Of a stretch of 64,000 bases of DNA, positions 28,898-45,596 are shown in pieces. The translations under genes were made by a program, and so were the position numbers. The first letter of the stretch is position 1. Each line of letters opens with the position of its first letter. The notes below the pieces were generated by a model, which ran no database searches, had not been told where the DNA came from, and was given only the letters and a program-made list of their open reading frames with translations. The DNA comes from an uncultured Gammaproteobacteria bacterium (GTDB lineage: Bacteria; Pseudomonadota; Gammaproteobacteria; UBA9214): NCBI GenBank assembly GCA_963748215.1, contig CAVVHS010000002.1, positions 96,001 through 160,000 on the forward strand, written 5' to 3'.

Positions 28898-29240
28898 TAC
28901 CGCCCCCCCGACCGCACAGCAGAATCAGCCCCGGTTCCCGCCCGGTGCACGATCCCGGCGCGTATGCAGCACGTCGCGCGGCATGCTCCCGCGCCTTGGA
29001 ACGGGTCTGAAATGGAAATGAAAAAACCGATCATCGAACCGCCTTCCCTGGTCAGTCTTGATGAGTCATAAATCCGATACGCCGGTAGCGGCCATGGCAT
29101 CAATTACTTTAGAAATATCGGTCAGTTGCGTCCGATGACCGGCCGGCGTTCGACCGGTCCCGCGGCTAAAGCTTTTCCTGTTCCAGCCGCACTAGCGTGT
29201 GTTGCCCTGCAGAAAAACGCGTTCCGAACAGGATTCCAGC

Positions 29241-31839: not shown

Positions 31840-33555
31840 TCATGAGCGTGACAGCAGCATAAGCCACAGCACATTCAGCAGAAACAGCAACAGCGCAATC
31901 CCCTTCCAAACCAGTAACGGATTACGATCGATTAGCGGCTCCATGCTGCGCGTGACAAACTCGGGGTTCGGATGCGACAGGTCATGTATGAATTCCGACG
32001 ATACCGCGTATCGACGGCCGCGCTCGATTGCCACGGCCTTCTGCAGCGCCCGATCGAACCAGAGCGGAACTTCCGGGTTGATCTGCGATGCCGACCTGTA
32101 ACGCGCCCGGCGCAACCGGCGAAGCGTGAGTTCGTCTTTGCCATAGGGTAGCTGGCCTGTGACCAGCTCGTAGGCAACCACGCCTAGCGAATAGATGTCG
32201 GAGATATTGTCACCCCGCAGGCCCTGCAGATATTCCGGCGCCGTATAGTTGCGCGTACCCAACAGATTATCACGTGCCAATGGCGTGGTGATCTCCTCGA
32301 TACCGGCAATGCGCGTGGACCCGAAATCGATGATTTTCACGGTGCCGTAGCGATCGATCATGATGTTCTCGGGCTTGAGGTCCTGATGCACCATCTCAAG
32401 ACGGTGAAATGCGCGCAGTCCGGCGGCAATCTGCTGAACGATCTCGCGCACATCCTCGAGGGCCGGTTGCGGGTTATCGTTCATCCACTGGCGCAGCGTC
32501 CAGCCATCGATGAATTCGGAAACATAATACAGGCACTGGCGCCGGCCATGCGGCTCGAACACCTTGAGAACGTGCTGGTTGCGTATGCGCCGACCGGCCC
32601 ATTCCTCATGCAGGAAACCGTCGATGTATTCGGCATCGTCACTATAGTTAACCGACGGCGTCTTCAGGATGACCTTGCGATCGGTTTGTCCATCAACGGC
32701 CAGATACACCTGCGTGCGATTGCTGGCATGCAGCTCGCGCACGACCTTGTACCCATCCAGCACCATGCCAGGCTCCAGCGCCGGTGGAAAAAGCAGTTCG
32801 GAGAATTTCTGATAAAATTCGTTCTCATCAAGATCGGGTAACTGGTCGATATGCAACACCTGGCAAGTTACGTTGTCATGACTGCCATTGGCCAGCGCCT
32901 GCTCCGCGATGCGACGGGCCTTTGTATCCGGATCGCTGTGTCGATCGTAGATGAAAGCGGCCAGCGCCGTGTCATCCAGGTAGTCATGCACACCGTCCGT
33001 GGTGAGCAGGTAGATATCATCCTGTTCTACCGGCAGCGCACGATAATCGATTTCCATGTGCAGTTCGATGCCCATGGCACGACTCAAGACATTCTTGTCC
33101 GAGCCGAGACGGACGCGGTGATCACGCGTAAGACATTCCAGGCTACCCCTGCGCATGCGGTAGATACGCGTGTCTCCGACATGGAACAGGTGCACAGTGG
33201 CCGACTTGATAACCAACACGCTTAGCGTGGTAACCATGGCCTGCGTGGATTCGTATTCACGGTGGCCCTGCCCGTACAGCCAGCGATTGAGTGCGGTAAG
33301 TACCTTGGCTCCCGCCGTCTCGGTGCTCCACGATTCCGGCGTGGTGAAATAGTCAGCGAGAAAGCCGGTTACACAGGCCTCGGATGCCAGCTTGCCGGCC
33401 TCGCTGCTGCTCACGCCATCGGCGATGACCGCGGCAACACCCTTGGTCCTGAGCAACGCAGCATCCGGCATACGGATCCCGCAGCTGTCGTCGTTGCTAT
33501 CCTTGTTGCCGGCAGTACTGTATTGACCGCAGGTTATTTTCAGGGCGGATGACAT
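31840..33555 (-). CDS. Bifunctional PP2C phosphatase / Ser-Thr kinase with C-terminal TM helix
   Basis: IADGVSS, LTTDGVH, GSHDNVT (PP2C); HQDLKPEN, IIDFGS, YTAPE (kinase). Confidence 0.9.
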   Translation of the reverse strand: MSSALKITCGQYSTAGNKDSNDDSCGIRMPDAALLRTKGVAAVIADGVSSSEAGKLASEACVTGFLADYFTTPESWSTETAGAKVLTALNRWLYGQGHREYESTQAMVTTLSVLVIKSATVHLFHVGDTRIYRMRRGSLECLTRDHRVRLGSDKNVLSRAMGIELHMEIDYRALPVEQDDIYLLTTDGVHDYLDDTALAAFIYDRHSDPDTKARRIAEQALANGSHDNVTCQVLHIDQLPDLDENEFYQKFSELLFPPALEPGMVLDGYKVVRELHASNRTQVYLAVDGQTDRKVILKTPSVNYSDDAEYIDGFLHEEWAGRRIRNQHVLKVFEPHGRRQCLYYVSEFIDGWTLRQWMNDNPQPALEDVREIVQQIAAGLRAFHRLEMVHQDLKPENIMIDRYGTVKIIDFGSTRIAGIEEITTPLARDNLLGTRNYTAPEYLQGLRGDNISDIYSLGVVAYELVTGQLPYGKDELTLRRLRRARYRSASQINPEVPLWFDRALQKAVAIERGRRYAVSSEFIHDLSHPNPEFVTRSMEPLIDRNPLLVWKGIALLLFLLNVLWLMLLSRS

Positions 33556-33734: not shown

Positions 33735-35204
33735 CTAGGTCACCTCGATCATCTGCACCGTCCCGTCGGGCAACACTTCTGCCATATGTCCCTGCGGCTC
33801 ATCCAGAAACAGCGCCACGGCCGCCAGCGTCACCACGGCGGCAGCGGCGATCACCATGAAGAACACCTGCGGAGACACAAACGAAAGCACGGTCAGGAAG
33901 CTCACGGCTCCGACGTTGCCATAGGCACCGGCCATACCCGCCACCTGACCGGTGAGGCGGCGCTTCACCAGTGGCACCATGGCGAACACCGCGCCCTCAC
34001 CTGACTGTACGAAAAAGGAGCAGACCATGGTCATGGCGACAGCGAGCATAACCGGCCAGCTGGAATCGATCTGGCTCATGAACAGGTACCCGGCCGCCAG
34101 TCCCGTCAGGAGTACCAGCAGGGTCTTCTTGCGTCCGAAACGGTCACTGATCAGACCACCACCGGGACGCGCGACCAGGTTCATGAAGGCGTAGCCGGAG
34201 GCGAGCAGGCCGGCCTGCACCAGCGACAATTCGAAGGTGTCCTTGAAAAACAGCGGCAGCATCGAGACCACGGCCAGTTCCGAGCCGAATGTCACCAGGT
34301 AGGCGAGGTCCAGTATGGCGACCTGCTTGAACTTGTAGCGTTCGAATTCGGGAACCTCGCCGGTAAACACATGCCGGTTGACCTGATAGATGCGCACGGT
34401 CTGAAAGATATACAGACCGACCAGTACCGCATAGCTCAGGTTGGTCGCACCGGCATCGAGTAATTTCAGGTTGGCCGGCCCAAGCTTCCAGGCCAGCACG
34501 GCCAGCGCGGCATACAACGGAATGTTCATGACCAGATAGAGAAAGAAATCACCGCGGCTGGTCACTTCCATGCCGCCGTTCTTCTTCGGCTTGAAATAAG
34601 TCGAACCCTTGGGGGTATCGCTCACCGAGAAGAAATAGACTGCCGAGTACACCAGCGTCAGCACGCCGGTGAGGGCGATAGCATGGCGCCAGCCATCTTC
34701 ACCACCCAGCCACAATGCCAGTGTCGGCAGGCTGAGTGCCGCCGCAGCCGAGCCAAAGTTGCCCCAGCCACCATAGACGCCCTCGGCGACACCCACCTGC
34801 CGAGCCGGAAACCATTCGCCGATCATGCGGATGCCGATCACGAATCCCGCCCCGACGAAGCCCAGCAGGAAGCGCATCAACGCCAGACGCTCAAAGGTGT
34901 CCGCGAATGCAAATCCGAAACACAGGAAACTGGAAACGAACAGCAAGAGCGAATAGATACGACGCGGCCCGAAGGCGTCCACCAGCATGCCGATAATGAT
35001 GCGCGCCGGGATGGTCAATGCCACGTTGAGGATCAGCAGCATTTTCACCTGCTGGTCAGACAGCCCGAAGGCGTCGCGAATCGACGCCATCACGGGAGCG
35101 TGGTTGAACCACACGAAGAAGGACAGGAAAAACGCGAACCAGGTCAGATGCAGGATCTGATATTTCCCGGAAAACGATAACAGCTTGAGCCTGGACTCCG
35201 ACAT
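33735..35204 (-). CDS. narK: NarK/NasA-type MFS nitrate/nitrite transporter
   Basis: [52 protein letters not shown]. Confidence 0.93.
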
Positions 35205-35260
35205 AAATACTCCTTTACGGTGATGCATCCGACGCCGGATGCCATGTTCAGGAGAGTTAG

Positions 35261-35276
35261 AGCAAGGAGCATGCCA
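35261..35276 (-). promoter_or_regulatory. sigma54 promoter of narK
   Basis: TGGCATGCTCCTTGCT matches TGGCAC-N5-TTGCW; NtrC-like GCACCA-GCC-TGGTGC at 35473-35489. Confidence 0.82.
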
Positions 35277-35843
35277 GCTCCACCGACACAACAGTATGGC
35301 GCGCTGATGCGTTCGCCGGCCAGTAACGTTGTTTACTGGATTTCATTGTTTGTATCTGCACTTAAGTCAATTGAACAGGGCGTGGAGTCGCGCTTGTCGT
35401 GCCGCCGAACAAGTGCATCATTGCAAGCACGTGGCGGTGATCTGCCTGCAGGCAGTGCATGAAATACATATTGGCACCAGCCTGGTGCGGCCATATCAAG
35501 ACACTAGACCGGCCTGACAAGGGCAGAATACTTTGTTTGTGCAGGCAGGCTTCGGCAGGGGCACGCGCACACAGACGGTTCGTAGGCGCAATCGTGATCG
35601 TGTCGGCAACCATCGCGCCGTCAGCATTGCCGGGCCGCCGTCATACCTGCCACATCCTCAGGAGCTTTACCGCCAGTGCCGGCGCTTGTGATCCCGACTT
35701 CGAAGCCTCCTGTGCGCAGGTATAACGCAACGCGTGAACACTGTGCATCAAACCGGTGCCAGCCTGCCTTCCCGCCTGTCGCACGACCGATGCAAAGCGA
35801 ATGGCGTAAATGCAGCATATTAAAGGTGCATATTACTGGCCGG

Positions 35844-35975
35844 TGCGCCAACTTGGTGCAAAAAGTGGCGATGTTACACCCGGCCGCCAGTCCGGGCCGC
35901 ACCAAAATAGCAAATTTGATTCAGGGGCTTACAGATTTTCACCGGACAAACCACCGCGCTGGTACGGACCTTGCA
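35844..35975 (+). promoter_or_regulatory. NtrC-like box and sigma54 promoter of the nirB operon
   Basis: TGCGCCAACTTGGTGCA (35844-35860); TGGTACGGACCTTGCA (35960-35975). Confidence 0.8.
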
Positions 35976-36017
35976 AATTTCCCGCTAATGCATCGGTAAC
36001 AAGCACAGGAAACGGCT

Positions 36018-38450
36018 ATGAAGGAAAAACTCGTCCTGGTAGGCAACGGCATGGCCGGCGTACGTACCCTCGAGGAACTGCTCAAGCTCGCACCGGAACG
36101 TTATGACATCACGGTGTTCGGCGCCGAGCCATACGGCAACTACAACCGGATCATGCTGTCACCCGTGCTGGCCGGCGAGAAAACCATCGATGACATCATG
36201 CTCAACGACGAGCAATGGTATATCGATAATGGTATCAGCCTGCACAAGGGCAAGACCGTTACCCGCATCGACAGGCTGCGGCGCCAGGTGATCGCCGATG
36301 ACAGTACCACGGCACACTATGACCGCCTGCTGCTGGCGACCGGCTCCAACCCGTTCATCATCCCGGTACAGGGACACGACAAGGACGGGGTGATTGCCTT
36401 CCGCGACATCCACGATGTCGACACCATGCTGGCGGCTTCGCGCGACTACAGGAAGGCCGTGGTAATCGGTGGCGGCCTGCTCGGACTGGAAGCCGCCAAC
36501 GGCCTGATGAAACAGGGCATGGAGGTGACCGTCGTGCACCTGCTCGACTCGCTGATGGAACGCCAGCTCGACAAGCCGGCGTCGGGGCTGCTCAAGCGCT
36601 CGCTGGAACAGCGCGGCATGACCTTTTTAATGGAAGCCCAGACCAGCGAGATCCTCGGCAACGGCCGCGTCCGCGGCGTGCGTTTCAAGGATGGCAGCGA
36701 AGTCGAGGCCGACCTGGTGGTAATGGGTGTCGGCATCGTGCCGAATGCCGCCCTGGCGAAGAGTGCCGGCCTGTACTGCGAGCGCGGCATCGTGGTGAAC
36801 GACGTCATGCAGACGTACGACCCGCGCATCTACGCGGTCGGCGAATGCGCTCAGCATCGCGGCATCGCCTACGGCCTGGTCGCGCCACTGTTCGAGCAGG
36901 GCAAGGTTGCGGCCAACCAGCTCGCCGGCCTTGGCTATTCCCATTACAAGGGCTCGGTCACCTCGACCAAGCTCAAGGTCACCGGCATCGACCTGTTCTC
37001 GGCCGGCGAGTTCAACGAATCCGAGGGCGACGAGGTACTGGTATTGCAGGACGATGCCGCCGGCAACTACAAGAAACTGGTCATCCGCGACAACCGGGTC
37101 AAGGGTGCGGTGCTGTACGGCGATACCATCGACGGCAGCTGGTACTTTCAGCTGATGCGTGAGGGCACTGGCATCGCGGATTTTCGCAAGACCCTGCTGT
37201 TCGGCCAGCACGACCTGGGTGACGCCGGCCACGGCGACGAGACGCGTGTCATGTCGCTGCCCGACTCGGCAGAGATCTGCGGCTGCAACGGCGTGTGCAA
37301 GGGCGATATCGTCAAGGCCATCAGCAAGCAGGGCCTGTTCACGCTGGATGATGTCCGCGCCCACACCAAGGCCTCCAGTTCCTGCGGTTCCTGCACCGGC
37401 CTGGTAGAGGCGCTGCTCGCCAGCACGGTGGGCGAAGGCTACGATGCCTCGCTCAACAGGAAACCGATGTGCAAGTGCACCCAGTACAGCCACGACGAGG
37501 TGATCGCTGCCATCAAGCAAAACGAACTGAAGGCCATGCCTGCGGTACGCAATTTCCTGGAGTGGAAGAACCCGGACGGTTGCGCCGCCTGCCGCCCGGC
37601 ACTCAATTACTACCTGCTGGCCTACTGGCCCGGCGAATACCGGGACGATGCGCAGTCGCGCTTCATCAACGAGCGCGCGCACGGCAACATCCAGAAGGAC
37701 GGCACCTACTCGGTGGTGCCGCGCATGTTCGGCGGGCTGTGCAAGCCGGACGAGCTGCGCGCCATCGCCGATGCCTGTGACAAGTACCAGGTACCGGAGG
37801 TCAAGGTCACCGGCGGCCAGCGTATCGACATGTTCGGCGTGAAAAAGGAAGACCTGCCGCTGATGTGGAAGGACCTGTCCGAGGCCGGCCTGGTCTCGGG
37901 TCATGCCTATGCCAAGGCGTTGCGCACGGTGAAGACCTGTGCCGGCAAGACCTGGTGTCGATTCGGTACCCAGGACTCGACCGGGCTTGGCGTGCAGCTG
38001 GAGCAGATGACCTGGGGCTCGTGGATGCCGCATAAATACAAGATGGCGGTGTCGGGCTGTCCGCGCAACTGTGCCGAGGCCACCATCAAGGACTTCGGCG
38101 TGGTGTGCGTCGACTCCGGTTACGAATTGCACATCGGCGGCAACGGTGGCATCAAGGTGCGCATCACCGACCTGCTCACCAAGGTCGAGACCGAGGAACA
38201 GGTGAAGGAATACTGCGGCGCGTTTACCCAGCTGTACCGCGAGGAAGCTCACTACCTGGAACGCACCGCCCCCTGGGTTGAACGTGTCAGCCTGAGCTAT
38301 ATCAAGGGCAGGATCCTGGAAGACGCGGAAGACCGCAAGGCACTGTACGAGCGATTCCTGTATTCACAGCAGTTCTCGCAGACCGACCCCTGGAAGGAAC
38401 GCGCCGACGGTTTCGCAGCACACGAGTTCACGCCCCTGAAGATCGCGTAA
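36018..38450 (+). CDS. nirB: Assimilatory NAD(P)H nitrite reductase large subunit
   Basis: VGNGMAG, GGGLLGLEAA, ICGCNGVCKG, HGNIQKDGTYSVVPR, VKTCAG, SGCPRNCAE. Confidence 0.97.
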   Translation: MKEKLVLVGNGMAGVRTLEELLKLAPERYDITVFGAEPYGNYNRIMLSPVLAGEKTIDDIMLNDEQWYIDNGISLHKGKTVTRIDRLRRQVIADDSTTAHYDRLLLATGSNPFIIPVQGHDKDGVIAFRDIHDVDTMLAASRDYRKAVVIGGGLLGLEAANGLMKQGMEVTVVHLLDSLMERQLDKPASGLLKRSLEQRGMTFLMEAQTSEILGNGRVRGVRFKDGSEVEADLVVMGVGIVPNAALAKSAGLYCERGIVVNDVMQTYDPRIYAVGECAQHRGIAYGLVAPLFEQGKVAANQLAGLGYSHYKGSVTSTKLKVTGIDLFSAGEFNESEGDEVLVLQDDAAGNYKKLVIRDNRVKGAVLYGDTIDGSWYFQLMREGTGIADFRKTLLFGQHDLGDAGHGDETRVMSLPDSAEICGCNGVCKGDIVKAISKQGLFTLDDVRAHTKASSSCGSCTGLVEALLASTVGEGYDASLNRKPMCKCTQYSHDEVIAAIKQNELKAMPAVRNFLEWKNPDGCAACRPALNYYLLAYWPGEYRDDAQSRFINERAHGNIQKDGTYSVVPRMFGGLCKPDELRAIADACDKYQVPEVKVTGGQRIDMFGVKKEDLPLMWKDLSEAGLVSGHAYAKALRTVKTCAGKTWCRFGTQDSTGLGVQLEQMTWGSWMPHKYKMAVSGCPRNCAEATIKDFGVVCVDSGYELHIGGNGGIKVRITDLLTKVETEEQVKEYCGAFTQLYREEAHYLERTAPWVERVSLSYIKGRILEDAEDRKALYERFLYSQQFSQTDPWKERADGFAAHEFTPLKIA

Positions 38451-38485
38451 CAAACCCATTGCCACAGAGATACGGAGCCATAGAG

Positions 38486-38659
38486 ATGAAGATTAAAATT
38501 GACGTCAACCTTGAACTGGGCTTGCAGGAATACGGTCTGCAACAAGCCGAAAAATCGATTCCGGAAAGCGTACGCCGCCCTGATTGGATGGAAATAACGG
38601 AATACGAAGCACCTGCACAAGCTGCATTCAGGACGTATTCAAAAAAGGCGTTACATTGA
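38486..38659 (+). other. 57-codon ORF between CACAGAG-type inverted repeats
   Basis: GCCACAGAG (38461) ... CTCTGTGGC (38681-38689) bracket a lower-GC insert between nirB and nirD. Confidence 0.4.
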
Positions 38660-38711
38660 TTTCCCTGTGTACTCCATGCCCTCTGTGGCGAATCCTGTGA
38701 AAGGTAGCACC

Positions 38712-39041
38712 ATGACCAACTGGACTGAAATCGCAAAGCTGGAAGACATCCCGCGACTCGGCGCACGTGTGCTGAAAACCGACACCATCAACATCGCGCT
38801 GTTTCGTACCGCGCTGGATGAAGTGTTCGCCATCAGGGACGAGTGCCCGCACCGCGGGGGACCGCTGTCGCAGGGCATCGTGCATGGCACCTCGGTGAGC
38901 TGCCCGCTGCACAACTGGAAGATCGATCTGGCCAGCGGTCAGGCGCTGGGTCCGGATGAAGGCTGCACCAATACCTTTGCCACCCGGGTCGAGAATGGCC
39001 GGGTTTACCTGGCGCTGAAAGCCGACGAGGTCGCCGCGTGA
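38712..39041 (+). CDS. nirD: Nitrite reductase small (Rieske) subunit
   Basis: CPHRGGPLSQG...CPLHNW. Confidence 0.94.
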   Translation: MTNWTEIAKLEDIPRLGARVLKTDTINIALFRTALDEVFAIRDECPHRGGPLSQGIVHGTSVSCPLHNWKIDLASGQALGPDEGCTNTFATRVENGRVYLALKADEVAA

Positions 39042-39062
39042 GCGTGCTGCTAGAAATAGCCT

Positions 39063-39127
39063 GTAGGAGCGGATCTCATCCGCGACTCTGTTAACCATTC
39101 TCAACCGCGCATGAGATGCGCTCCTAC
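39063..39127. repeat. REPIN (REP family 1)
   Basis: GTAGGAGCGGATCTCATCCGCG...CGCGCATGAGATGCGCTCCTAC. Confidence 0.9.
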
Positions 39128-39144
39128 GCGTAACAGGAAATCCC

Positions 39145-41331
39145 ATGCTATTCGGTCGCAACAAGAAGAACCCGGTAAAAATCGCCGACAAGGGTGTCAT
39201 GGAATGGCGATATGCCACCTGCGGCTATTGCTCCACCGGCTGCTCGATCGAGGTGGGACTGGATGCCGACGGTGAACCGGTCGCCTCGCGCGGCGTTGCA
39301 GATGCCGACGTAAATCGCGGCAAGCTGTGCATCAAGGGCATCTTCGAACACGAACTGTTCCGCAAGACCGCCGGGCGCGGCGACCGGCCGCTGATCCGCG
39401 ACAAGCGCTGGGAAGCCTTCACCGAAACAAGCTGGGACGTTGCGCTGGATAAAACAACCGACGAGATCAAGCGTATCCAGCAGATGTACGGACGCGACGC
39501 ATTTTCCATCGTCTCCACCGGCCAGATCATGACCGAGGAGTTCTACACGCTGGGCAAGCTGGCGCGCGGCGTCATCGGCACCAACAACTACGACGGCAAC
39601 ACCACGCTGTGCATGTCATCGGCAGTATCCGGCTACAAGCGCTCGTTCGGGTCCGACGGCCCGCCCGGCTGCTACGACGATTTCGAGCACACCGACTGCC
39701 TGCTGGCGTTCGGTTCCAACCTGCCGGAACAGCACCCGATCATCTACTGGCGCCTGCAGCAGGTGCGCGAGCAGCGGAAATTCCCGATTATCGTGGTCGA
39801 TCCGCGCGTGACCATGTTCGCGCAGTTTGCCGACATTCACCTGCCCGTGGCGCCCGGCACCGACCTGGTGCTGCTCAACGCGCTGGCGCACGTGATCCTC
39901 GAGGAAGGACTGGAGGATCGCGGCTATATCGAGGCACACACGCAGGACTTTGATGAATTCGCCGCTCTGGTGCAGGATTACGACCCGGTCATGGCCTCCG
40001 GCATCTGCGGCATCGATGCAGACACCATCCGCAATGTCGCGCGCGTATACGGCAAGGCCAGTGCCGCCATGACCATCTGGACCATGGGCATCAACCAGAG
40101 CACGCATGGCTCCGACGGCGTGGTGGCGATCAACAACCTGAATCTCATCACGGGCAACATCGGCAAGCCCGGCGGCAGCTCGCTGTCCATCACCGGCCAG
40201 TGCAACGCCATGGGCACGCGCGAGTGGTCGTCCTGCTCCGGACTGCCCGGCTACCGTGCGCTGGAAAAGGAGCAGGATCGCGCGGAAATTGCGCAGTTCT
40301 GGGGCATCGATCCCGGGTTCTTTCCGAAACAGCGCGGCATGTTCATGACCGACATCCTGCCGGCCATCGAGACCGGCCAGATCAAGGGCCTGTGGCTGAT
40401 CGCCACCAACCCGATGACATCGATGGCGAACACCGCGCGCATCCGCAAGACACTCGAGAAGCTGGAATTCCTGGTGGTGCAGGACGCCTACCGCGATGTC
40501 GAAACCAACGAGTACAGCCACGTGTTCCTGCCGGCCGCGGTGTGGGCGGAAAAGGAGGGCTGCTTCACCAACACCGAGCGGCGCGTGAACCTGATCCGCA
40601 ATGTCTGCAAGCCGCACGGAGACTCTAAGACCGACCTGTGGATCTTCAACGAGACGGCCAGGCGTTTCGAACAGGGCCGTAAAATGCGCTTCCCGGAAAC
40701 CGCCGAGGGCGTATTCGACGAACTCAGGATACTGTCGAAGGGACGCATGCTCGACTACTCCGGCATGAGCTACGACAGGATCGAGGCCAGCCGCGGCATC
40801 CAGTGGCCCTGCAACGAAGAGACTGCACCGGAAGGCTCGCAGCGCCTGTACATCGACGGTGTCTTCCAGACCGCCAGCGGCCGGGCAAACCTGATCGCGC
40901 TGCCGTTCTTCGACGACAACGAGCGTCCCGACGCCGAATACCCGTTCTGGCTCAATTCAGGGCGCGTGGTGGAGCACTTCCACACCCGCACCCGCACCGG
41001 CAAGGTAAGCAACGCCAACAAGTTCAGCCCGACCCCGTACATGGAGATGAACCCGGATGCAGCCGCGGAACTCGGCATCACGCACGGCACGTATGCGCGC
41101 CTGACCTCGCGCCGCGGCGATGCCGTTGTGCTGGTGCAATGTACCCAGCGCGTGCCGCGCGATATGGTGTTCATCCCCTTCCATTACCACGAATGCGTGA
41201 ACCGCCTGTCGCTGGGGCTGCTCGATCCGCACTCGCGCCAGCCCGCCTACAAGCAATGTGCCGTACGCATCGAATCGGCCTGTGACCAGGCGGCCGCCGG
41301 CGAGCGCAATCGCGCCGCGAGGGCGTTCTGA
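39145..41331 (+). CDS. NasA/NarB-like Mo-bis-MGD nitrate reductase catalytic subunit
   Basis: TCGYCSTGC...LCIKG [4Fe-4S]; DGNTTLCMSSAV (Mo-Cys); TGQCNAMG; GCFTNTERR; FHTRTRTG; no Tat signal and no C-terminal BFD-like domain. Confidence 0.88.
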   Translation: MLFGRNKKNPVKIADKGVMEWRYATCGYCSTGCSIEVGLDADGEPVASRGVADADVNRGKLCIKGIFEHELFRKTAGRGDRPLIRDKRWEAFTETSWDVALDKTTDEIKRIQQMYGRDAFSIVSTGQIMTEEFYTLGKLARGVIGTNNYDGNTTLCMSSAVSGYKRSFGSDGPPGCYDDFEHTDCLLAFGSNLPEQHPIIYWRLQQVREQRKFPIIVVDPRVTMFAQFADIHLPVAPGTDLVLLNALAHVILEEGLEDRGYIEAHTQDFDEFAALVQDYDPVMASGICGIDADTIRNVARVYGKASAAMTIWTMGINQSTHGSDGVVAINNLNLITGNIGKPGGSSLSITGQCNAMGTREWSSCSGLPGYRALEKEQDRAEIAQFWGIDPGFFPKQRGMFMTDILPAIETGQIKGLWLIATNPMTSMANTARIRKTLEKLEFLVVQDAYRDVETNEYSHVFLPAAVWAEKEGCFTNTERRVNLIRNVCKPHGDSKTDLWIFNETARRFEQGRKMRFPETAEGVFDELRILSKGRMLDYSGMSYDRIEASRGIQWPCNEETAPEGSQRLYIDGVFQTASGRANLIALPFFDDNERPDAEYPFWLNSGRVVEHFHTRTRTGKVSNANKFSPTPYMEMNPDAAAELGITHGTYARLTSRRGDAVVLVQCTQRVPRDMVFIPFHYHECVNRLSLGLLDPHSRQPAYKQCAVRIESACDQAAAGERNRAARAF

Positions 41332-41349
41332 TGGCTGTCACACGCTTTC

Positions 41350-41414
41350 CTGCAGGAGCGCATCTCATGCGCGATGTATTGATAACACCTGTCGCGGATG
41401 AGATCCGCTCCTAC
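41350..41414. repeat. REPIN (REP family 1)
   Basis: GCAGGAGCGCATCTCATGCGCGA...TCGCGGATGAGATCCGCTCCTAC. Confidence 0.88.
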
Positions 41415-41439
41415 AAAAACATATCTCTTTTGTACAACC

Positions 41440-43278
41440 ATGTTTGAGCCGCGCCCGAAAGAACAGCCCTATGCCTTCGTGCCGCAGGCCGCGCACCCGG
41501 AGACGAATTGCTATGGCACGCCGATCGAGACCGTGCCGGAAGGTCATGATCTGCGCGGGCAGTCGCTCAACATCAACGGCGATGACAGCGTGCCGGACAA
41601 CCCGGACCGCTACAAGCAGCACGGCTTCTATTTCAATGCCGACAACTGCATCTCCTGCCATGCCTGCGAGGCGGCCTGCTCGGAGAAGAACGACTTGCCC
41701 GCGCACATTGCATTCCGCTCGGTCGGCTACGTGGAGGGTGGCAACTATCCTGCGTACCAGCGACTCAACATCTCCATGGCATGCAATCACTGCGACGACC
41801 CGGTGTGCCTGAAGGGCTGCCCGACGCGCGCCTACACCAAGTTTGCCGAGTACGGCGCAGTGCTGCAGGACCCGGACATCTGTTTCGGCTGCGGCTACTG
41901 CACCTGGGTATGTCCCTACAACGCGCCGCAGCTGGACACCCGGGCCGGCCATGTCTCCAAGTGCAACATGTGCGTGGACCGGCTCGAGGTCGGCCTGAAA
42001 CCGGCCTGTGCAGCGGCCTGTCTCGCCGGCGCGCTGGATTTCGGCATCATGGAAACGAAACCGGAACACCGCGACCAGCTGGAGACCAGCATCCCCGGTT
42101 TTCCGTCACCGGGCATCACGCATCCGAATATCCGCTTCCAGCAGACGCGCAGCCTGCCGCGCGCGATGACGCGCCCGGACAGCATGCCGATTCGCTATGA
42201 GCGCAGTGGCAAGCAGGGCGAGTCCTACCTGCCGCAGGTGGATGAAACCCGGCGTACACGCGCCTGGAACCTGAAAAATCTCGGCACACGCGAAAATCCG
42301 CTTGTCGTCTTCACCCTCGTGTCACAGGCGGTGATCGGCGCCTTCATCGTGCTGTTTCTCGGCCCGCGGTTTGGCCTGCAGACGCTCTCGATGCAGGACC
42401 ACCCGGTGGCCATGCCACTCATACTGTTCGGCCTGATCGGCATGCAGACCCTGGCACTGGTGCTGTCCACCCTGCACCTGGGCCGTCCGCACCGTTTCTA
42501 TCGCGCCTTCAACAACCTGCGTTACTCTCCGGTGAGCCGTGAGGTGGCGGGGATCGCGGTGTTCTATAACTTCCTCGGCGCCTATACCCTGCTGAGCGCC
42601 CTGCCCATGCTGTTCGGCTGGCTGCCGGACGGGTTGCTGGCCGCGCTGGTGCAAGTCAGCGGCTGGGGCGCGGTGCTTTCCGGCCTTGCAGCACTGTATT
42701 TCATGCACCGGATCTACCGCATCGCGGCACGTCCATTCTGGAATCACTGGCAGGTGCTGACCTCGTTCTACGGCAGCATGCTGACGCTTGGTTCGATGCT
42801 GATCGTGGCGGTGTATGCCGGCGTTCAGCACTACAACGGCCTGGCCTGGCAGGAGACAGCGGCACGGCTGGCTATCGTCATGCTGGCCGGGCTGGCGCTG
42901 GAGGCCATCGGCCTGTTTTACCATGCGCGTGACCTGCGTGCAGGCAGCGGCGAGGGCCAGGCCTCGCATTTCGAGCAGACTACCCGCTTCGGGTACACCT
43001 ACCTCGCGCGTAACAGTGGCATCGGTCTCGCCATGGCGCTGTTGCTGGCACTGGCGGTGACGGCCCCGGGTGGCGTACCTGGCCTGCTGGCCTGGCTGAT
43101 CACGACCGCCATCATCGCCGCGACGGCTGTCGTCGGCCGTACCCTGTTCTACGCGCTGGTCATTCCCACCACCATGCCGGGTGCGTTTTTCTGGCGCAAC
43201 AAGGGGTTCGAACAGCATGCCCGTGAAACCGGTCTGGCTGAATTGCCGCAGGTCGGCGTGCTGCCGGACTGCCATTGA
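41440..43278 (+). CDS. Fused DmsB-like four-cluster ferredoxin and DmsC/YnfH-like membrane anchor
   Basis: CISCHACEAAC, CNHCDDPVCLKGCP, CFGCGYCTWVCP, CNMC...PACAAAC; then PLVVFTLVSQAVIG, STLHLGRPHRFYRAFNNLRYSPVSRE, about 8 TM helices, VVGRTLFY. Confidence 0.9.
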   Translation: MFEPRPKEQPYAFVPQAAHPETNCYGTPIETVPEGHDLRGQSLNINGDDSVPDNPDRYKQHGFYFNADNCISCHACEAACSEKNDLPAHIAFRSVGYVEGGNYPAYQRLNISMACNHCDDPVCLKGCPTRAYTKFAEYGAVLQDPDICFGCGYCTWVCPYNAPQLDTRAGHVSKCNMCVDRLEVGLKPACAAACLAGALDFGIMETKPEHRDQLETSIPGFPSPGITHPNIRFQQTRSLPRAMTRPDSMPIRYERSGKQGESYLPQVDETRRTRAWNLKNLGTRENPLVVFTLVSQAVIGAFIVLFLGPRFGLQTLSMQDHPVAMPLILFGLIGMQTLALVLSTLHLGRPHRFYRAFNNLRYSPVSREVAGIAVFYNFLGAYTLLSALPMLFGWLPDGLLAALVQVSGWGAVLSGLAALYFMHRIYRIAARPFWNHWQVLTSFYGSMLTLGSMLIVAVYAGVQHYNGLAWQETAARLAIVMLAGLALEAIGLFYHARDLRAGSGEGQASHFEQTTRFGYTYLARNSGIGLAMALLLALAVTAPGGVPGLLAWLITTAIIAATAVVGRTLFYALVIPTTMPGAFFWRNKGFEQHARETGLAELPQVGVLPDCH

Positions 43279-43432
43279 ATATGACCGGCTCGAAATACCT
43301 GGATAATCTGGTCACGGCCCATGTGCGACCCTGCAGGTACGTCCTATTGTAGTCAGGAGCGGGTGCTGTCCGCGAACGGTTGCGGCCACATTTGTTCGCG
43401 CATGCCTGCGCTCCTGCAGCTATATTAATCGC

Positions 43433-43801
43433 ATGCACGCAACCACCCCTAAACGCCTCGCCGATATCCGCGACGATTTTGAGCGCGGTGTGTTTCTTGC
43501 GCTGTACAACTCACGCCGGCAACGGCTGCTCCGTGCCATAGCAGCGCTGATCCTCGGCATCAAGCACACCCTGCGCGGCATCCTGTTCAGCTGGCCACTG
43601 TACCTGTTGCCGCTGGCCGCATGGATATTGCAGGCGCGTTACCTGCCACTGATCGTGGTGCTGTTGCTGCCCGGCGTAGTGATTTCCGGATTCATTCTCC
43701 GGCGCGGCGTGCGTGAGGACTACGCGCGACTGGTGGATGGCTGCATACTACGACCGGGTTACCCCGGCCGCATACTCTTTCCGGGTAATTTCAGTACATG
43801 A
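43433..43801 (+). CDS. Small membrane protein of unknown function
   Basis: ATG ORF with two hydrophobic segments; ATGA-coupled to the next gene. Confidence 0.6.
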   Translation: MHATTPKRLADIRDDFERGVFLALYNSRRQRLLRAIAALILGIKHTLRGILFSWPLYLLPLAAWILQARYLPLIVVLLLPGVVISGFILRRGVREDYARLVDGCILRPGYPGRILFPGNFST

Positions 43802-43955
43802 AAAATAACCTGCCGGTACTGGGTTTTGCCGCATTCAGTGGAACGGGCAAGACCACCCTGCTGAAACAACTGATCCCGCTACTCGCGCAGCGGGGCATAC
43901 GTGTCGGCGTCATCAAGCATGCACACCACAATTTCGACATCGACACGCCCGGCGA
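43798..43955 (+). pseudogene. mobB: mobB 5' fragment
   Basis: PVLGFAAFSGTGKTTLL...VGVIKHAHHNFDIDTPG, after which homology stops. Confidence 0.8.
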
Positions 43956-43994
43956 CGCGCGGGCACGCAGTGAAAAGGCGCCAATGGCGCCGGT

Positions 43995-44135
43995 CATCTT
44001 CAGCCGGCGAATGACACTGGCCTCACCCGGGCCGGGTGAGGCCAGCACACCGATATCCGCCGTCGTCAGTCGTTTCCCGGCCAACAGCACCTGCTGGCCA
44101 GTGGTGACATCCTCACCGGCTGCACGCGCGTTCTG
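43995..44135 (-). pseudogene. moeA: Internal moeA fragment in inverted orientation
   Basis: QNARAAGEDVTTGQQVLLAGKRLTTADIGVLAS...SVIRRLKM matches the MoeA NIR..GED...RL...DIGLLAS segment. Confidence 0.7.
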
Positions 44136-44186
44136 CCGTCATCGATGACCGCTGCCAATGTAAAGGGTCAGATACCGAGTAGGCTC

Positions 44187-45596
<1,410 letters not shown>

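What the first reader, a model, noticed from the sequence alone, without database searches (positions are those of the whole stretch)
39145..43278. Candidate quinol-fed, membrane-anchored assimilatory nitrate reductase (NasA-like plus fused DmsB-DmsC subunit)
Seen: in a sigma54/NtrC-type nirBD operon, divergent from narK, the Mo-enzyme (728 aa, Cys ligand in TTLCMSSAV) has no Tat signal and no C-terminal BFD-like [2Fe-2S] extension. No NADH diaphorase gene follows. The next gene instead fuses a four-cluster DmsB-type ferredoxin to a DmsC/YnfH-type anchor of about 8 TM helices. Known: assimilatory Nas enzymes are soluble and use NADH or ferredoxin, while DmsBC modules draw electrons from quinol for respiratory enzymes. 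Inference: a cytoplasm-facing hybrid that assimilates nitrate using the quinol pool. This would spare a lithotroph reverse electron transport, and sqr (a quinol producer) lies about 0.9 kb downstream. I know of no biochemical description of this architecture.
Basis: partly seen in the sequence, partly recalled or inferred. Interest (0 to 1): 0.8.

Follow-up and report, generated by a model that had tools for sequence, protein, structure and literature searches.

The report
Membrane-anchored quinol-fed assimilatory nitrate reductase
A nitrate-assimilation operon pairs its cytoplasmic nitrate reductase with one protein that fuses an iron-sulfur wire to a quinol-binding membrane anchor, which suggests that this sulfur-oxidising bacterium and hundreds of other species reduce nitrate for growth with electrons from the membrane quinone pool instead of NADH or ferredoxin.

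Summary
nirB, nirD, nasA and the fusion gene run in one direction behind a sigma54-type promoter, divergent from narK. NasA (728 aa) has the nitrate-reductase Cys-Met motif, no signal peptide and no C-terminal 2Fe-2S domain. The fusion (probable start 41440, 612 aa) joins a 16-Cys, four-cluster DmsB-like domain to an 8-helix DmsC-type anchor. Its K+R bias (21 vs 2) puts the Fe-S domain and the invariant DmsC quinol-site His/Glu in the cytoplasm. The pair is strictly linked: 74 of 74 related loci with room upstream. In a 400-genome sample the same 7 genomes hold both, and no other NasA exceeds 41% identity. A complex model docks the Fe-S domain on NasA's 4Fe-4S cluster (0.88; best control 0.00; may reflect solved relatives). 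Best reading (about 0.6): a cytoplasm-facing ubiquinol:nitrate oxidoreductase feeding nitrite to NADH-NirBD. There is no biochemistry. NADH via NirB and Rieske-type NirD remains a rival. In one branch the pair stands apart from nirBD. sqr linkage is not conserved (0 of 80). Eight targeted literature searches found no description. This scan flagged the same module in 8 other genomes.

The parts
33735..35291 (-). NarK-family nitrate/nitrite MFS transporter gene, divergent from the operon (the start codon may lie downstream of the listed TTG)
   Evidence: TIGR00886, 343 bits, cut-off 311.7. Found next to relatives of the operon in 14 of 80 loci.
35474..35488 (.). NtrC-like palindrome GCACCAGCCTGGTGC in the narK-nirB intergenic region
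   Evidence: Read; pattern match. The consensus is recalled, not tested. The same pattern occurs in 3 of 27 related nirB upstream regions.
35960..35975 (+). Sigma54-type -24/-12 promoter element TGGTACGGACCTTGCA, 43 nt upstream of nirB
   Evidence: The same strict pattern lies within 600 nt upstream of nirB in 12 of 27 related loci.
36018..38450 (+). nirB, NAD(P)H nitrite reductase large subunit (FAD/NAD domain, BFD 2Fe-2S, sirohaem/4Fe-4S domain)
   Evidence: TIGR02374, 947 bits, cut-off 578; Pfam domains.
38667..39041 (+). nirD/nasG-like small subunit with all four Rieske ligands (C60, H62, C79, H82 of the listed ORF); probable start at Met16 (38712)
   Evidence: TIGR02378, 98.8 bits, cut-off 74.65; ligands read directly.
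39145..41331 (+). Short cytoplasmic Nas-type Mo-bisMGD nitrate reductase: FS0 ligands C26, C29, C33, C62; Mo ligand C156 followed by M157
41440..43278 (+). Fusion protein (612 aa from Met15 of the ORF that opens at 41398): N-terminal 58-aa arm, four-cluster DmsB-like domain, about 80-aa linker, 8-TM DmsC-type anchor, conserved C-terminal tail
41617..42084 (+). Four-[4Fe-4S] ferredoxin domain of the fusion (residues 60-215 in the 612-aa numbering); all 16 Cys invariant
   Evidence: A1 invariant columns C70, 73, 76, 80, 115, 118, 123, 127, 148, 151, 154, 158, 175, 178, 190, 194. TIGR02951 dmsB, 158 bits, below the 214 cut-off.
42295..43155 (+). DmsC-type 8-helix anchor (residues 286-572), N-in/C-in, with invariant His346 and Glu368 at the cytoplasmic ends of TM2/TM3
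   Evidence: PF04976, 76 bits; K+R bias and H/E conservation; helices with pLDDT mostly above 90; NrfD/PsrC-like fold hits.
43433..43801 (+). Small 2-TM protein of no known family; possibly accessory
   Evidence: No Pfam or NCBIfam hit; Atlas hits all below 0.9; homologue downstream of the fusion in 21 of 80 loci.
43798..44148 (+). Short MobB-like gene (MGD cofactor synthesis adaptor), consistent with maturation of a bis-MGD enzyme
   Evidence: PF03205, 70.7 bits; it matches only profile positions 1-64 of 133. Present in 11 of 80 loci.

Best explanation
NasA and the fusion protein form a two-polypeptide, membrane-bound, cytoplasm-facing quinol:nitrate oxidoreductase. It performs the first step of nitrate assimilation.

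Proposed electron path:

1. Quinol, here most likely ubiquinol, is oxidised at a DmsC-type site (His346/Glu368) on the cytoplasmic face of the 8-helix anchor.
2. Electrons pass along the four [4Fe-4S] clusters of the fused DmsB-like domain.
3. They reach the N-terminal [4Fe-4S] cluster of NasA, then the Mo-bisMGD centre (Cys156), where nitrate imported by NarK is reduced to nitrite.
4. NADH-dependent NirBD reduces the nitrite to ammonium.

Quinol oxidation and nitrate reduction are on the same side of the membrane and the anchor has no haem family signature. The step should therefore be non-electrogenic. It saves NAD(P)H or ferredoxin for 2 of the 8 electrons.

The operon is under nitrogen control (sigma54/NtrC-type promoter).

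**Shown by computation:** gene order, domain content, cluster and site residues, topology bias, strict co-occurrence, a docked model.

**Inferred:** the substrate, the quinol donor, the direction of electron flow, the physiological role.
For: **Architecture and residues**
- Domains and motifs.
- All 16 cluster Cys, His346 and Glu368 are invariant in 44 fusion sequences. The His and Glu are invariant in 75 of 75 when aligned to E. coli DmsC H65/E87.
- FS0 Cys and the C156-M157 pair are invariant in 44 NasA sequences.

**Topology**
- K+R on the Fe-S side (pre-TM1, loops 2-3, 4-5, 6-7, tail) averages 21.0 (minimum 17). The opposite loops average 0.6 (maximum 3), n=75. The window itself gives 21 vs 2.
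- No signal peptide on either protein.

**Partnership**
- nasA lies directly upstream on the same strand in 74 of 74 loci with more than 700 nt upstream.
- In an even 400-genome Pseudomonadota sample the full-length fusion occurs in 7 genomes. Exactly those 7 hold an adjacent 63-74%-identical short NasA.
- The other 107 genomes with a NasA-like hit reach at most 41% identity, mostly with longer open frames.
- Fusion-linked NasAs form one clade (SH-aLRT 100, 18 of 18 rows).
- Complex model of NasA 19-728 with fusion 1-275: ipSAE 0.88 in 3 of 3 runs, best of 3 controls 0.00. The mark was reached by 116 of 157 solved complexes and 2 of 215 mismatched pairs. Runs agree in at least 99% of contacts; partner pLDDT is 84-85. 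The interface joins NasA 47-67 (around C62) to fusion 69-82 and 193-197 (first-cluster ligands).

**Nitrate type**
- CM(S/A)SAV-GYKR, as in classical Nas. FDH-type rows have C-H.
- The best PDB relative is NapA, 437 bits.

**Assimilatory setting**
- nirBD-narK context.
- Sigma54 element here and upstream of nirB in 12 of 27 relatives.
- nirB (at least 55% identity) lies within 8 kb in 23 of 44 fully flanked loci, and within 8.3 kb in 5 of 5 sampled genomes.
- The own genome (95% complete) has no NarG over cut-off and no NapA hit at E<=1e-150.

**Quinone**
- UbiA and UbiG score over cut-off. No MenD over cut-off and no MqnA were found.

**Energetics**
- A nitrate/nitrite potential of 433 mV is quoted in PMC10100899 (passage). 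The ubiquinone potential of about +100 mV is recalled.
Against: - There are no biochemical or expression data.
- P0001 is below every curated NCBIfam cut-off. Its top model is Fdh-alpha (575 vs 666); NasC scores 517 vs 1100.
- In the tree the clade is not nested in classical Nas. It sits in an unresolved polytomy with Nas, NapA and FDH-like rows.
- The same operon encodes NirB (FAD/NADH) and a NirD with full Rieske ligands. An NADH route like Paracoccus NasB-NasG-NasC (recalled) is therefore not excluded.
- In 15 of 44 fully flanked loci no nirB lies within 8 kb. In 4 of 5 such genomes examined a classical long NasA sits beside nirB elsewhere. The module may thus have another role there.
- The AlphaFold2 model of the whole fusion gave pLDDT below 50 for residues 41-239, the Fe-S domain. 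The geometry between cluster FS4 and the quinol site is therefore not modelled.
- The complex pass may reflect memory of solved FdnGH, PsrAB or NarGH complexes.
- E. coli DmsC itself shows no K+R bias in my count (5 vs 5). 'Inverted relative to DmsC' therefore rests on recalled topology experiments.
- UbiH was not found at E<=1e-20.
Confidence: 0.6

Rival explanations
1. The enzyme has the same chemistry (cytoplasmic quinol:nitrate oxidoreductase), but its main role is not assimilation. It would act as a non-energy-conserving electron sink or redox valve for an over-reduced quinone pool, for example during sulfide or hydrocarbon oxidation at low oxygen. Alternatively it would be the first step of nitrate ammonification. 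NirBD would then act mainly to remove nitrite.
For: - The pair is an autonomous two-gene unit in a whole branch: no nirB within 8 kb in 15 of 44 fully flanked loci.
- Neighbours in L064, L073 and L077 are unrelated genes.
- 4 of 5 such genomes also hold a classical NasA next to nirB, so the two types are not simply redundant.
- 10 of 80 loci hold a second NasA-like gene nearby; L074 has an 890-aa ORF directly after the fusion.
- An FNR-like box lies upstream of nasA in L058.
Against: - In this window the genes sit in a nirBD operon behind a sigma54/NtrC-type promoter, next to narK.
- This is the only nitrate-reductase-type gene found in the genome.
- Stand-alone loci also carry a sigma54-like -24/-12 element: 10 of 18, against 38 of 3600 shuffles. 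FNR-like boxes occur in only 1 of 20.
- A same-side quinol site would conserve no energy.
Confidence: 0.18
2. NasA receives its electrons from NADH through NirB and the Rieske-type NirD, as proposed for Paracoccus NasB-NasG-NasC. The fusion protein would be accessory. It could be a membrane tether, a second conditional donor, or a route that passes surplus electrons back to the quinone pool.
For: - nirB, nirD and nasA are adjacent here and in many relatives.
- NirD keeps all four Rieske ligands.
- NirB has the FAD/NAD domains.
- The Paracoccus model is recalled, not read here.
Against: - This NasA clade co-occurs strictly with the fusion (74 of 74; 7 of 7 vs 0 of 107), and also where nirBD is far away.
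- The clade lacks the C-terminal extension that most of the other NasA hits carry (open frames mostly about 830-1500 aa, with a few near 700-725 aa).
- The fusion docks in the canonical electron-entry position at FS0 (with the caveat about memory of solved complexes).
- The quinol-site residues would not need to stay invariant in a mere tether.
Confidence: 0.12
3. The Mo subunit acts on another substrate (formate, chlorate, selenate, another oxyanion), and the gene context is misleading.
For: - The top NCBIfam model is formate dehydrogenase alpha, 575 bits.
- FDH-type enzymes are the next PDB hits.
- The clade branches separately from classical Nas.
Against: - The Cys-Met-(Ala/Ser)-Ser-Ala-Val motif is shared with Nas and NapA rows. 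FDH-type rows in the same alignment have Cys-His.
- The gene sits between nirD and the fusion in a narK-nirBD cluster.
- The score is below the Fdh-alpha cut-off of 666.
Confidence: 0.04

Closest known systems
Classical assimilatory nitrate reductases (NasA/NasC of proteobacteria and Bacillus, NarB of cyanobacteria)
   Same: - Cytoplasmic Mo-bisMGD enzyme with an N-terminal [4Fe-4S] cluster.
- Cys-Met active-site motif followed by GYK.
- Encoded with nirBD and a nitrate transporter under nitrogen control.
- About 70 kDa, the short form, like NarB and B. subtilis NasC (sizes from a PMC7331816 passage).
   Different: - The partner is a membrane-anchored four-cluster protein, not an NADH diaphorase, ferredoxin or flavodoxin.
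- It forms a separate clade: at most 41% identity to other proteobacterial NasA, SH-aLRT 100.
- It scores below the curated NasC and NasA cut-offs.
- PMC7331816 states that no member of the Nas/Aio/Nap clade is associated with the canonical four-cluster or membrane anchor subunits (passage).
DmsABC, the E. coli menaquinol:DMSO oxidoreductase (complex iron-sulfur molybdoenzyme type)
   Same: - Four-cluster DmsB-type protein; the best NCBIfam model is TIGR02951.
- DmsC-family 8-helix haem-less anchor, PF04976.
- DmsC His65 and Glu87 are conserved.
- The catalytic-subunit FS0 docks on the first cluster of the Fe-S subunit.
   Different: - B and C are fused into one chain.
- There is no Tat signal, and the module faces the cytoplasm. 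DmsAB is exported to the periplasm (recalled).
- The catalytic subunit comes from the Nas/Nap/Fdh clade, not the DmsA clade: dmsA_ynfE scores 126 bits vs 778.
- The donor is probably ubiquinol rather than menaquinol.
SoeABC sulfite:quinone oxidoreductase (Allochromatium vinosum, Ruegeria pomeroyi)
   Same: A membrane-bound Mo/Fe-S/anchor complex that works on the cytoplasmic side (PMC6335251 passages). It is the best precedent for a cytoplasm-facing enzyme of this build.
   Different: - Three separate subunits.
- The anchor is NrfD/PsrC-like; here Pfam assigns DmsC.
- The Mo subunit belongs to a different clade, bSreA/SoeA (PMC10100899 passage).
- Electrons flow from substrate to quinone, the opposite direction.
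- I had no SoeABC sequence to compare.
NarGHI respiratory nitrate reductase
   Same: Membrane-bound, quinol-oxidising, with the nitrate site in the cytoplasm and electrons passing through a four-cluster subunit. From recall (I did not read the source), in M. tuberculosis NarGHI also serves assimilation.
   Different: - NarG is an Asp-ligated type II enzyme. No narG model appears among the 25 best of 27 NCBIfam hits listed for P0001.
- NarI is a dihaem cytochrome b that oxidises quinol at the outer face and makes the reaction electrogenic (recalled).
- The anchor here is of the haem-less DmsC family, with its site residues on the inner face.

Membership tests
Assimilatory nitrate reductase catalytic subunit (NasA/NasC/NarB) | Fe4S4 + Molybdopterin + Molydop_binding domain order with four FS0 cysteines | tested here: met
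   Pfam hits at 19-67, 80-505 and 601-706. C26, C29, C33 and C62 are invariant in 44 sequences.
Assimilatory nitrate reductase catalytic subunit (NasA/NasC/NarB) | Mo-ligand Cys followed by Met in the LCM(A/S)S motif (not Cys/Sec-His as in formate dehydrogenases) | tested here: met
   TTLCMSSAVSGYKR. The 14 classical Nas rows have SRLCM(A/S)S, 5 NapA rows have ARHCMASAV, and 3 FDH-type rows have C-H. The residue aligns with the NapA Mo-ligand Cys. The ligand role is recalled.
Assimilatory nitrate reductase catalytic subunit (NasA/NasC/NarB) | Cytoplasmic location: no Tat or Sec signal | tested here: met
   No hydrophobic N-terminal segment (maximum hydropathy 0.90). 'RR' occurs in the first 45 residues in 4 of 44 rows, but without an h-region.
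Assimilatory nitrate reductase catalytic subunit (NasA/NasC/NarB) | Score over the curated NCBIfam cut-off for NasC (NF047855) or NasA (NF041323) | tested here: not met
   517.5 vs 1100, and 484.4 vs 1000.
Assimilatory nitrate reductase catalytic subunit (NasA/NasC/NarB) | Groups with characterised or classical Nas sequences in a tree | tested here: inconclusive
   Its own clade (SH-aLRT 100) sits in a polytomy with classical Nas, NapA and FDH-like rows. No named NarB or NasC reference was available.
Assimilatory nitrate reductase catalytic subunit (NasA/NasC/NarB) | Encoded with nitrite reductase and nitrate transporter genes under nitrogen control | tested here: met
   Met in the window. Across relatives it is only partly met: 23 of 44 fully flanked loci.
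Assimilatory nitrate reductase catalytic subunit (NasA/NasC/NarB) | Nitrate reductase activity needed for growth on nitrate | not testable with these tools
   Needs enzyme assays and mutants.
DmsABC-type complex iron-sulfur molybdoenzyme | Four-cluster Fe-S subunit with 16 cysteines in four groups | tested here: met
   Read; all 16 invariant. TIGR02951 scores 158 bits, below its 214 cut-off.
DmsABC-type complex iron-sulfur molybdoenzyme | DmsC/YnfH-family anchor with the quinol-site His and Glu | tested here: met
   PF04976, 76 bits vs 22.3. H65 and E87 equivalents are invariant, 75 of 75. The residue roles are recalled.
DmsABC-type complex iron-sulfur molybdoenzyme | DmsA-clade catalytic subunit with a Tat signal; Fe-S and Mo subunits on the periplasmic side; B and C as separate chains | tested here: not met
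   dmsA_ynfE scores 126 bits vs 777.7. No signal peptide. K+R bias is 21 vs 0.6. B and C form one ORF.
SoeABC-type cytoplasm-facing molybdoenzyme | Cytoplasmic orientation of the Mo and Fe-S parts on a haem-less anchor | tested here: met
   The anchor fold is nearest to ActC of alternative complex III (E 2.4e-5 to 3.8e-4) and to PsrC (rank 10, target TM-score 0.62).
SoeABC-type cytoplasm-facing molybdoenzyme | SoeA-clade Mo subunit and NrfD/PsrC-family SoeC anchor | not tested
   No SoeABC sequence was at hand. Pfam assigns the anchor to DmsC (PF04976); no NrfD hit was listed.
NarGHI respiratory nitrate reductase | NarG-type catalytic subunit and NarI dihaem cytochrome b anchor | tested here: not met
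   TIGR01580 is not among the 25 best of 27 NCBIfam hits listed for P0001. The anchor is of the DmsC family. The own genome has no NarG over cut-off.

The most novel reading that the evidence does not exclude
This is a third, so far undescribed class of assimilatory nitrate reductase system, fed by quinol, beside the NADH- and ferredoxin/flavodoxin-dependent classes.

- It arose when a Nas-type catalytic subunit captured a DmsBC electron-transfer/anchor module.
- That module was fused into one chain and turned over in the membrane, so that its quinol site and clusters face the cytoplasm.
- It switched from menaquinol to ubiquinol.
- It is present in at least 627 species-level genomes of sulfur-, iron- and ammonia-oxidiser lineages and of marine heterotrophs.

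It would link nitrate assimilation directly to the respiratory quinone pool.
Probability: 0.55. Interest if true: 0.8.

Novelty: new variant of a known kind. Interest (0 to 1): 0.7.

Why it matters
- **Electron donor.** Assimilatory nitrate reductases are taught as soluble enzymes fed by NAD(P)H, ferredoxin or flavodoxin. A broad phylogeny of the enzyme family states that the Nas/Nap/Aio clade has no four-cluster or membrane-anchor partners (PMC7331816, passage). A quinol-fed, membrane-bound form would change that picture.
- It would change the budget of nitrate assimilation in chemolithoautotrophs, which must make NADH by reverse electron flow.
- **Annotation.** The partner is currently named 'DMSO reductase iron-sulfur/anchor subunit', which hides it from nitrogen-cycle surveys.
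- **Redox coupling.** Nitrate use would become coupled to the redox state of the respiratory chain.
- **Membrane-protein evolution.** It offers a clean natural case of topology inversion of an 8-helix quinol-binding anchor by fusion and charge redistribution.
- **Testability.** Related genes occur in named genera (Ketobacter, Amphritea, Motiliproteus, Thiohalobacter; record titles).

Tried and rejected
- **Whole-fusion fold.** The AlphaFold2 model has mean pLDDT 62. The anchor is confident, but the Fe-S domain (41-239) is below 50. I could not read the geometry between the last cluster and the quinol site.
- **Complex job.** The single job went to NasA plus the Fe-S domain. NasA with NirD (the rival) could not be run.
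- **Expression.** No RNA holder was listed for window 38600-43300.
- **First tree.** It contained two rows taken from a wrong frame (L097, L112). It was rebuilt with the frames given by the searches. Only the quick method (SH-aLRT, LG+G4) was run, with no bootstraps.
- **E. coli DmsC control.** The K+R count was 5 vs 5, so it is uninformative.
- **sqr linkage.** No sqr homologue was found in any of 80 related loci. I rejected it as part of the system.
- **Strict scans upstream of nasA in 20 nirB-unlinked loci.** Sigma54 matched in 2 and an FNR-like box in 1. A relaxed sigma54 pattern matched 10 of 18.
- **RNA leader structure in stand-alone loci.** 4 predicted pairs, 0 with covariation. The conserved GCAC-N7-GTGC looks like a DNA site instead.
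- **Rfam.** Five loci gave only a tRNA.
- **Terminator scan, 35200-44400.** 6 sites found vs 6.6 expected, none in the + strand gaps of the operon.
- **orf122.** No family; Atlas hits 0.86 or lower.
- **UbiH.** Not found at E<=1e-20, although UbiA and UbiG are present.
- **Literature.** Of nine searches, eight looked for a prior description and found no description of a Nas-type enzyme with a DmsB/DmsC partner. The ninth looked for mycobacterial NarGHJI. The PMC7816997 passages did not contain the M. tuberculosis NarGHI assimilation statement, so that point stays recalled.
- **Not read.** No supplements were read. Subscription journals are outside the library.

Full report
**What is there**

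The region holds a co-directional row of genes on the + strand:
- nirB, 36018-38450 (TIGR02374, 947 bits)
- nirD, 38667-39041 (TIGR02378, 98.8 bits)
- a 728-aa molybdoenzyme, 39145-41331
- a 626-codon ORF, 41398-43278

A NarK-family transporter gene (33735-35291) is transcribed divergently. The gaps between the four genes are 103-261 nt. A simple terminator scan found nothing in those gaps on the + strand: 6 sites in 9.2 kb against 6.6 expected, and the + strand sites near the operon lie inside ORFs.

Forty-three nucleotides before nirB lies TGGTACGGACCTTGCA (35960-35975), a good match to the recalled sigma54 -24/-12 consensus. At 35474-35488 lies GCACCAGCCTGGTGC, which matches the recalled NtrC site. 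The same strict sigma54 pattern lies upstream of nirB in 12 of 27 related loci.

**The molybdoenzyme**

Pfam finds only the Fe4S4, Molybdopterin and Molydop_binding domains, ending at residue 706. There is no BFD-like 2Fe-2S extension. The N-terminus (MLFGRNKKNPVK...) has no twin-arginine motif and no hydrophobic stretch. Over 44 orthologues the highest 15-residue hydropathy in the first 60 residues is 0.90.

- The best solved relative is D. desulfuricans NapA (437 bits). Its Mo-ligand Cys in CMASAV aligns to Cys156 in CMSSAV.
- All NCBIfam scores are below cut-off: Fdh-alpha 575 vs 666, NasC 517 vs 1100, haloarchaeal NasA 484 vs 1000, NapA 427 vs 904.
- I built a 41-row tree (quick IQ-TREE, LG+G4, SH-aLRT only). 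A first version with two wrong-frame rows was corrected.
  - The 18 fusion-linked NasA rows form one clade (support 100, stem 0.85).
  - It is separate from 14 classical proteobacterial Nas rows (99) and 5 NapA rows (100).
  - A further group of 3 rows (the genome's own FDH alpha plus two sampled genes) carries Cys-His.
  - The four groups meet in an unresolved polytomy.
- The active-site stretch is TTLCM(S/A)SAVSGYKR in the fusion-linked clade, SRLCM(S/A)S.V.GYK in classical Nas, ARHCMASAV in NapA and ARLCH in the FDH-type rows.

The enzyme therefore has the nitrate-reductase signature, but it is a distinct deep branch.

**The fusion protein**

The 120 best database relatives are 596-636 aa, and nearly all align from the window's residue 15, so the start is probably 41440. 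Sources name them 'DMSO reductase iron-sulfur subunit' or 'DmsC/YnfH family anchor subunit'.

- After a 58-residue arm come four complete cysteine groups of the DmsB type. All 16 Cys are invariant in 44 sequences. TIGR02951 dmsB is the best model (158 bits, below its 214 cut-off). The best solved relatives are FdnH and PsrB.
- An 80-residue linker leads to eight helices. These match the whole DmsC profile (PF04976, 76 bits) and are modelled with high confidence.
- Foldseek places the membrane part nearest the quinol-binding NrfD-like subunit ActC of alternative complex III (E 2.4e-5 to 3.8e-4) and PsrC (rank 10, target TM-score 0.62).

**Topology and quinol site**

I aligned 75 family members (the window plus 74 loci) with E. 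coli DmsC.

- Lys+Arg on the segments continuous with the Fe-S domain (pre-TM1, loops 2-3, 4-5, 6-7, C-tail) averages 21.0 (minimum 17).
- The other four loops average 0.6 (maximum 3). The window has 21 vs 2.
- With no signal peptide on either protein, the Fe-S domain, both termini and the even loops are cytoplasmic.
- E. coli DmsC gave 5 vs 5. The statement that the anchor is inverted relative to DmsC therefore rests on recalled experiments: DmsC termini periplasmic, DmsAB Tat-exported.
- DmsC His65 and Glu87, recalled as menaquinol-site residues, are invariant in 75 of 75 (His346 and Glu368 in the 612-aa numbering). They sit at the cytoplasmic ends of TM2 and TM3, in the Arg-rich loop 2-3.

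**Is the fusion NasA's partner?**

- A NasA of more than 60% identity lies directly upstream on the same strand in 74 of the 74 loci that have more than 700 nt upstream. The other 6 begin too close to a contig end.
- In an even sample of 400 Pseudomonadota genomes, the full-length fusion (E<=1e-195) is in 7.
  - A further 125 genomes matched at E<=1e-20, mostly through the Fe-S part alone. A few matched through adjacent split dmsB/dmsC-like genes read through a stop.
- The same 7 genomes hold an adjacent NasA of 63-74% identity with a 732-769-aa open frame.
- The remaining 107 genomes with a hit at E<=1e-120 reach at most 41% identity. Their open frames are mostly about 830-1500 aa, with a few near 700-725 aa.
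- A complex model of NasA 19-728 with fusion residues 1-275 scored ipSAE 0.88 in all three runs, against 0.00 for the best of three controls.
  - That mark was reached by 116 of 157 solved complexes and 2 of 215 mismatched pairs.
  - The runs agree in at least 99% of contacts, and partner pLDDT is 84-85.
  - The interface joins the NasA segment around the fourth FS0 ligand (47-67) to the first-cluster ligands of the Fe-S domain (69-82, 193-197). The N-terminal arm (5-12) also touches NasA.
  - Because FdnGH, PsrAB and NarGH complexes are solved, this pass may show likeness rather than binding.

**Physiological setting**

- The window's genome (9 contigs, 95% complete) has Dsr genes (DsrO 331 bits), a Tat-type DmsA-like enzyme with a TorD-like chaperone, and an FdnGHI-like formate dehydrogenase. 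It has no NarG over cut-off (best 44 bits) and no NapA hit at E<=1e-150. The gene studied is thus its only nitrate-reductase-type gene found.
- UbiA (346 bits) and UbiG (278 bits) score over cut-off. MenD (best 66 vs 244) and MqnA were not found, and neither was UbiH at 1e-20. Ubiquinol is therefore the likely donor.
- With nitrate/nitrite at 433 mV (PMC10100899 passage) and ubiquinone near +100 mV (recalled), the reaction is downhill.
- Nitrite would then go to NirBD, so quinol would supply 2 of the 8 electrons.

**Results that cut against a simple assimilatory reading**

1. NirD here keeps all four Rieske ligands (C60, H62, C79, H82) and NirB has FAD/NAD domains. An NADH route of the Paracoccus NasB-NasG-NasC kind (recalled) is possible.
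2. Of 44 loci with a full 8-kb upstream flank, 23 have nirB of at least 55% identity, 6 have only a distant nirB-like gene, and 15 have none within 8 kb.
   - In three of those 15 loci (L064, L073, L077) the neighbours are unrelated genes.
   - The five genomes behind L064, L070, L073, L077 and L078 all have nirB elsewhere. In 4 of the 5 a classical long NasA lies next to it. One genome (L077) has only the fusion-linked type.
   - In the phylum sample, by contrast, nirB lies within 8.3 kb of the pair in 5 of 5 genomes tested.
3. The stand-alone loci nevertheless share a sigma54-like -24/-12 element, often with TTGT at -12. It occurs in 10 of 18, against 38 of 3600 shuffles, mostly 157-200 nt before nasA. 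Only 1 of 20 has an FNR-like box.
4. sqr is not linked in any of 80 loci.

**Literature**

Of nine full-text searches, eight looked for a prior description. They found no paper describing a Nas-type enzyme with a DmsB/DmsC-type partner. The ninth looked for mycobacterial NarGHJI.

- Passages of PMC10100899 list Nas enzymes as cytoplasmic without such partners.
- A passage of PMC10734462 notes nasA co-located with nirBD in iron oxidisers but does not mention the fusion.
- Passages of PMC6335251 describe SoeABC as a cytoplasm-side Mo/Fe-S/NrfD-like complex, the closest precedent in build.
- I read no supplements, and subscription journals are outside the library.

**Earlier notes of this scan**

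A look-up by sequence returned eight earlier reports on other genomes with the same reading. I treated them as leads. The topology, co-occurrence and site-residue claims were re-tested here and hold. The nearby classical NasA noted in one of them was also seen here (L074). SoeABC as closest precedent was checked only against paper passages.

**Verdict**

The most likely explanation (about 0.6) is a cytoplasm-facing, membrane-anchored ubiquinol:nitrate oxidoreductase serving assimilation in this organism. It is a new variant within the complex iron-sulfur molybdoenzymes: a Nas-type catalytic subunit on a fused, inverted DmsBC module. It is widespread and, as far as my searches reach, undescribed. 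The donor, substrate and role remain inferences until membranes are assayed.

Noticed in passing
window 31840-33555 (-): A gene fusing a PP2C phosphatase domain to a Ser/Thr protein kinase domain lies next to narK. A homologue is present in 17 of 80 related loci, usually beside narK. This suggests phospho-regulation of nitrate uptake or assimilation.
   Followed up: partly
window 43433-43801 (+) and 43798-44148 (+): A small 2-TM protein of no known family is conserved downstream of the fusion in 21 of 80 loci. A short MobB-like gene (11 of 80) overlaps its end by 4 nt. The MobB-like ORF covers only the first half of the Pfam profile (1-64 of 133) and may be truncated.
   Followed up: partly
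L061, L066, L070, L071, L075, L077, L080: about 157-200 nt upstream of nasA: Stand-alone nasA-fusion loci share a sigma54-like -24/-12 element, often with TTGT at -12. It is followed by a long leader with conserved GCAC-N7-GTGC palindromes. RNAalifold found 4 pairs and no covariation, so these look like DNA sites placed unusually downstream of the promoter.
   Followed up: partly
L074 2015-4687 (+); also L042, L032, L035, L040: Some genomes carry a second, classical NasA-like gene (35-40% identity; an 890-aa ORF in L074) directly after or near the fusion gene, so both nitrate reductase types sit in one cluster.
   Followed up: partly
G000 contig C6 61-67 kb (L089): The same genome has a DmsA-like enzyme (856 aa), a 221-aa DmsB-like protein that is 47% identical to the fusion's Fe-S domain, a TorD-like chaperone and a 356-aa polyferredoxin-like protein. 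Among the ORFs of 150 aa or more that I listed, no DmsC-type anchor gene lies beside them. It is a possible relative of the module that was captured.
   Followed up: partly
window 38667-39041 (+): NirD keeps all four Rieske [2Fe-2S] ligands (C60, H62, C79, H82). It resembles the NasG type rather than a cluster-less NirD; the distinction is recalled.
   Followed up: no
window 29199-31697 (+): A dCache-HAMP-GGDEF-EAL signalling protein is encoded just beyond the kinase gene.
   Followed up: no
window 35262-35276 (-): A second sigma54-like match (TGGCATGCTCCTTGC) lies on the narK strand, inside the listed narK ORF near its TTG start. The real narK start may therefore be further downstream and narK may also be sigma54-dependent.
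   Followed up: no
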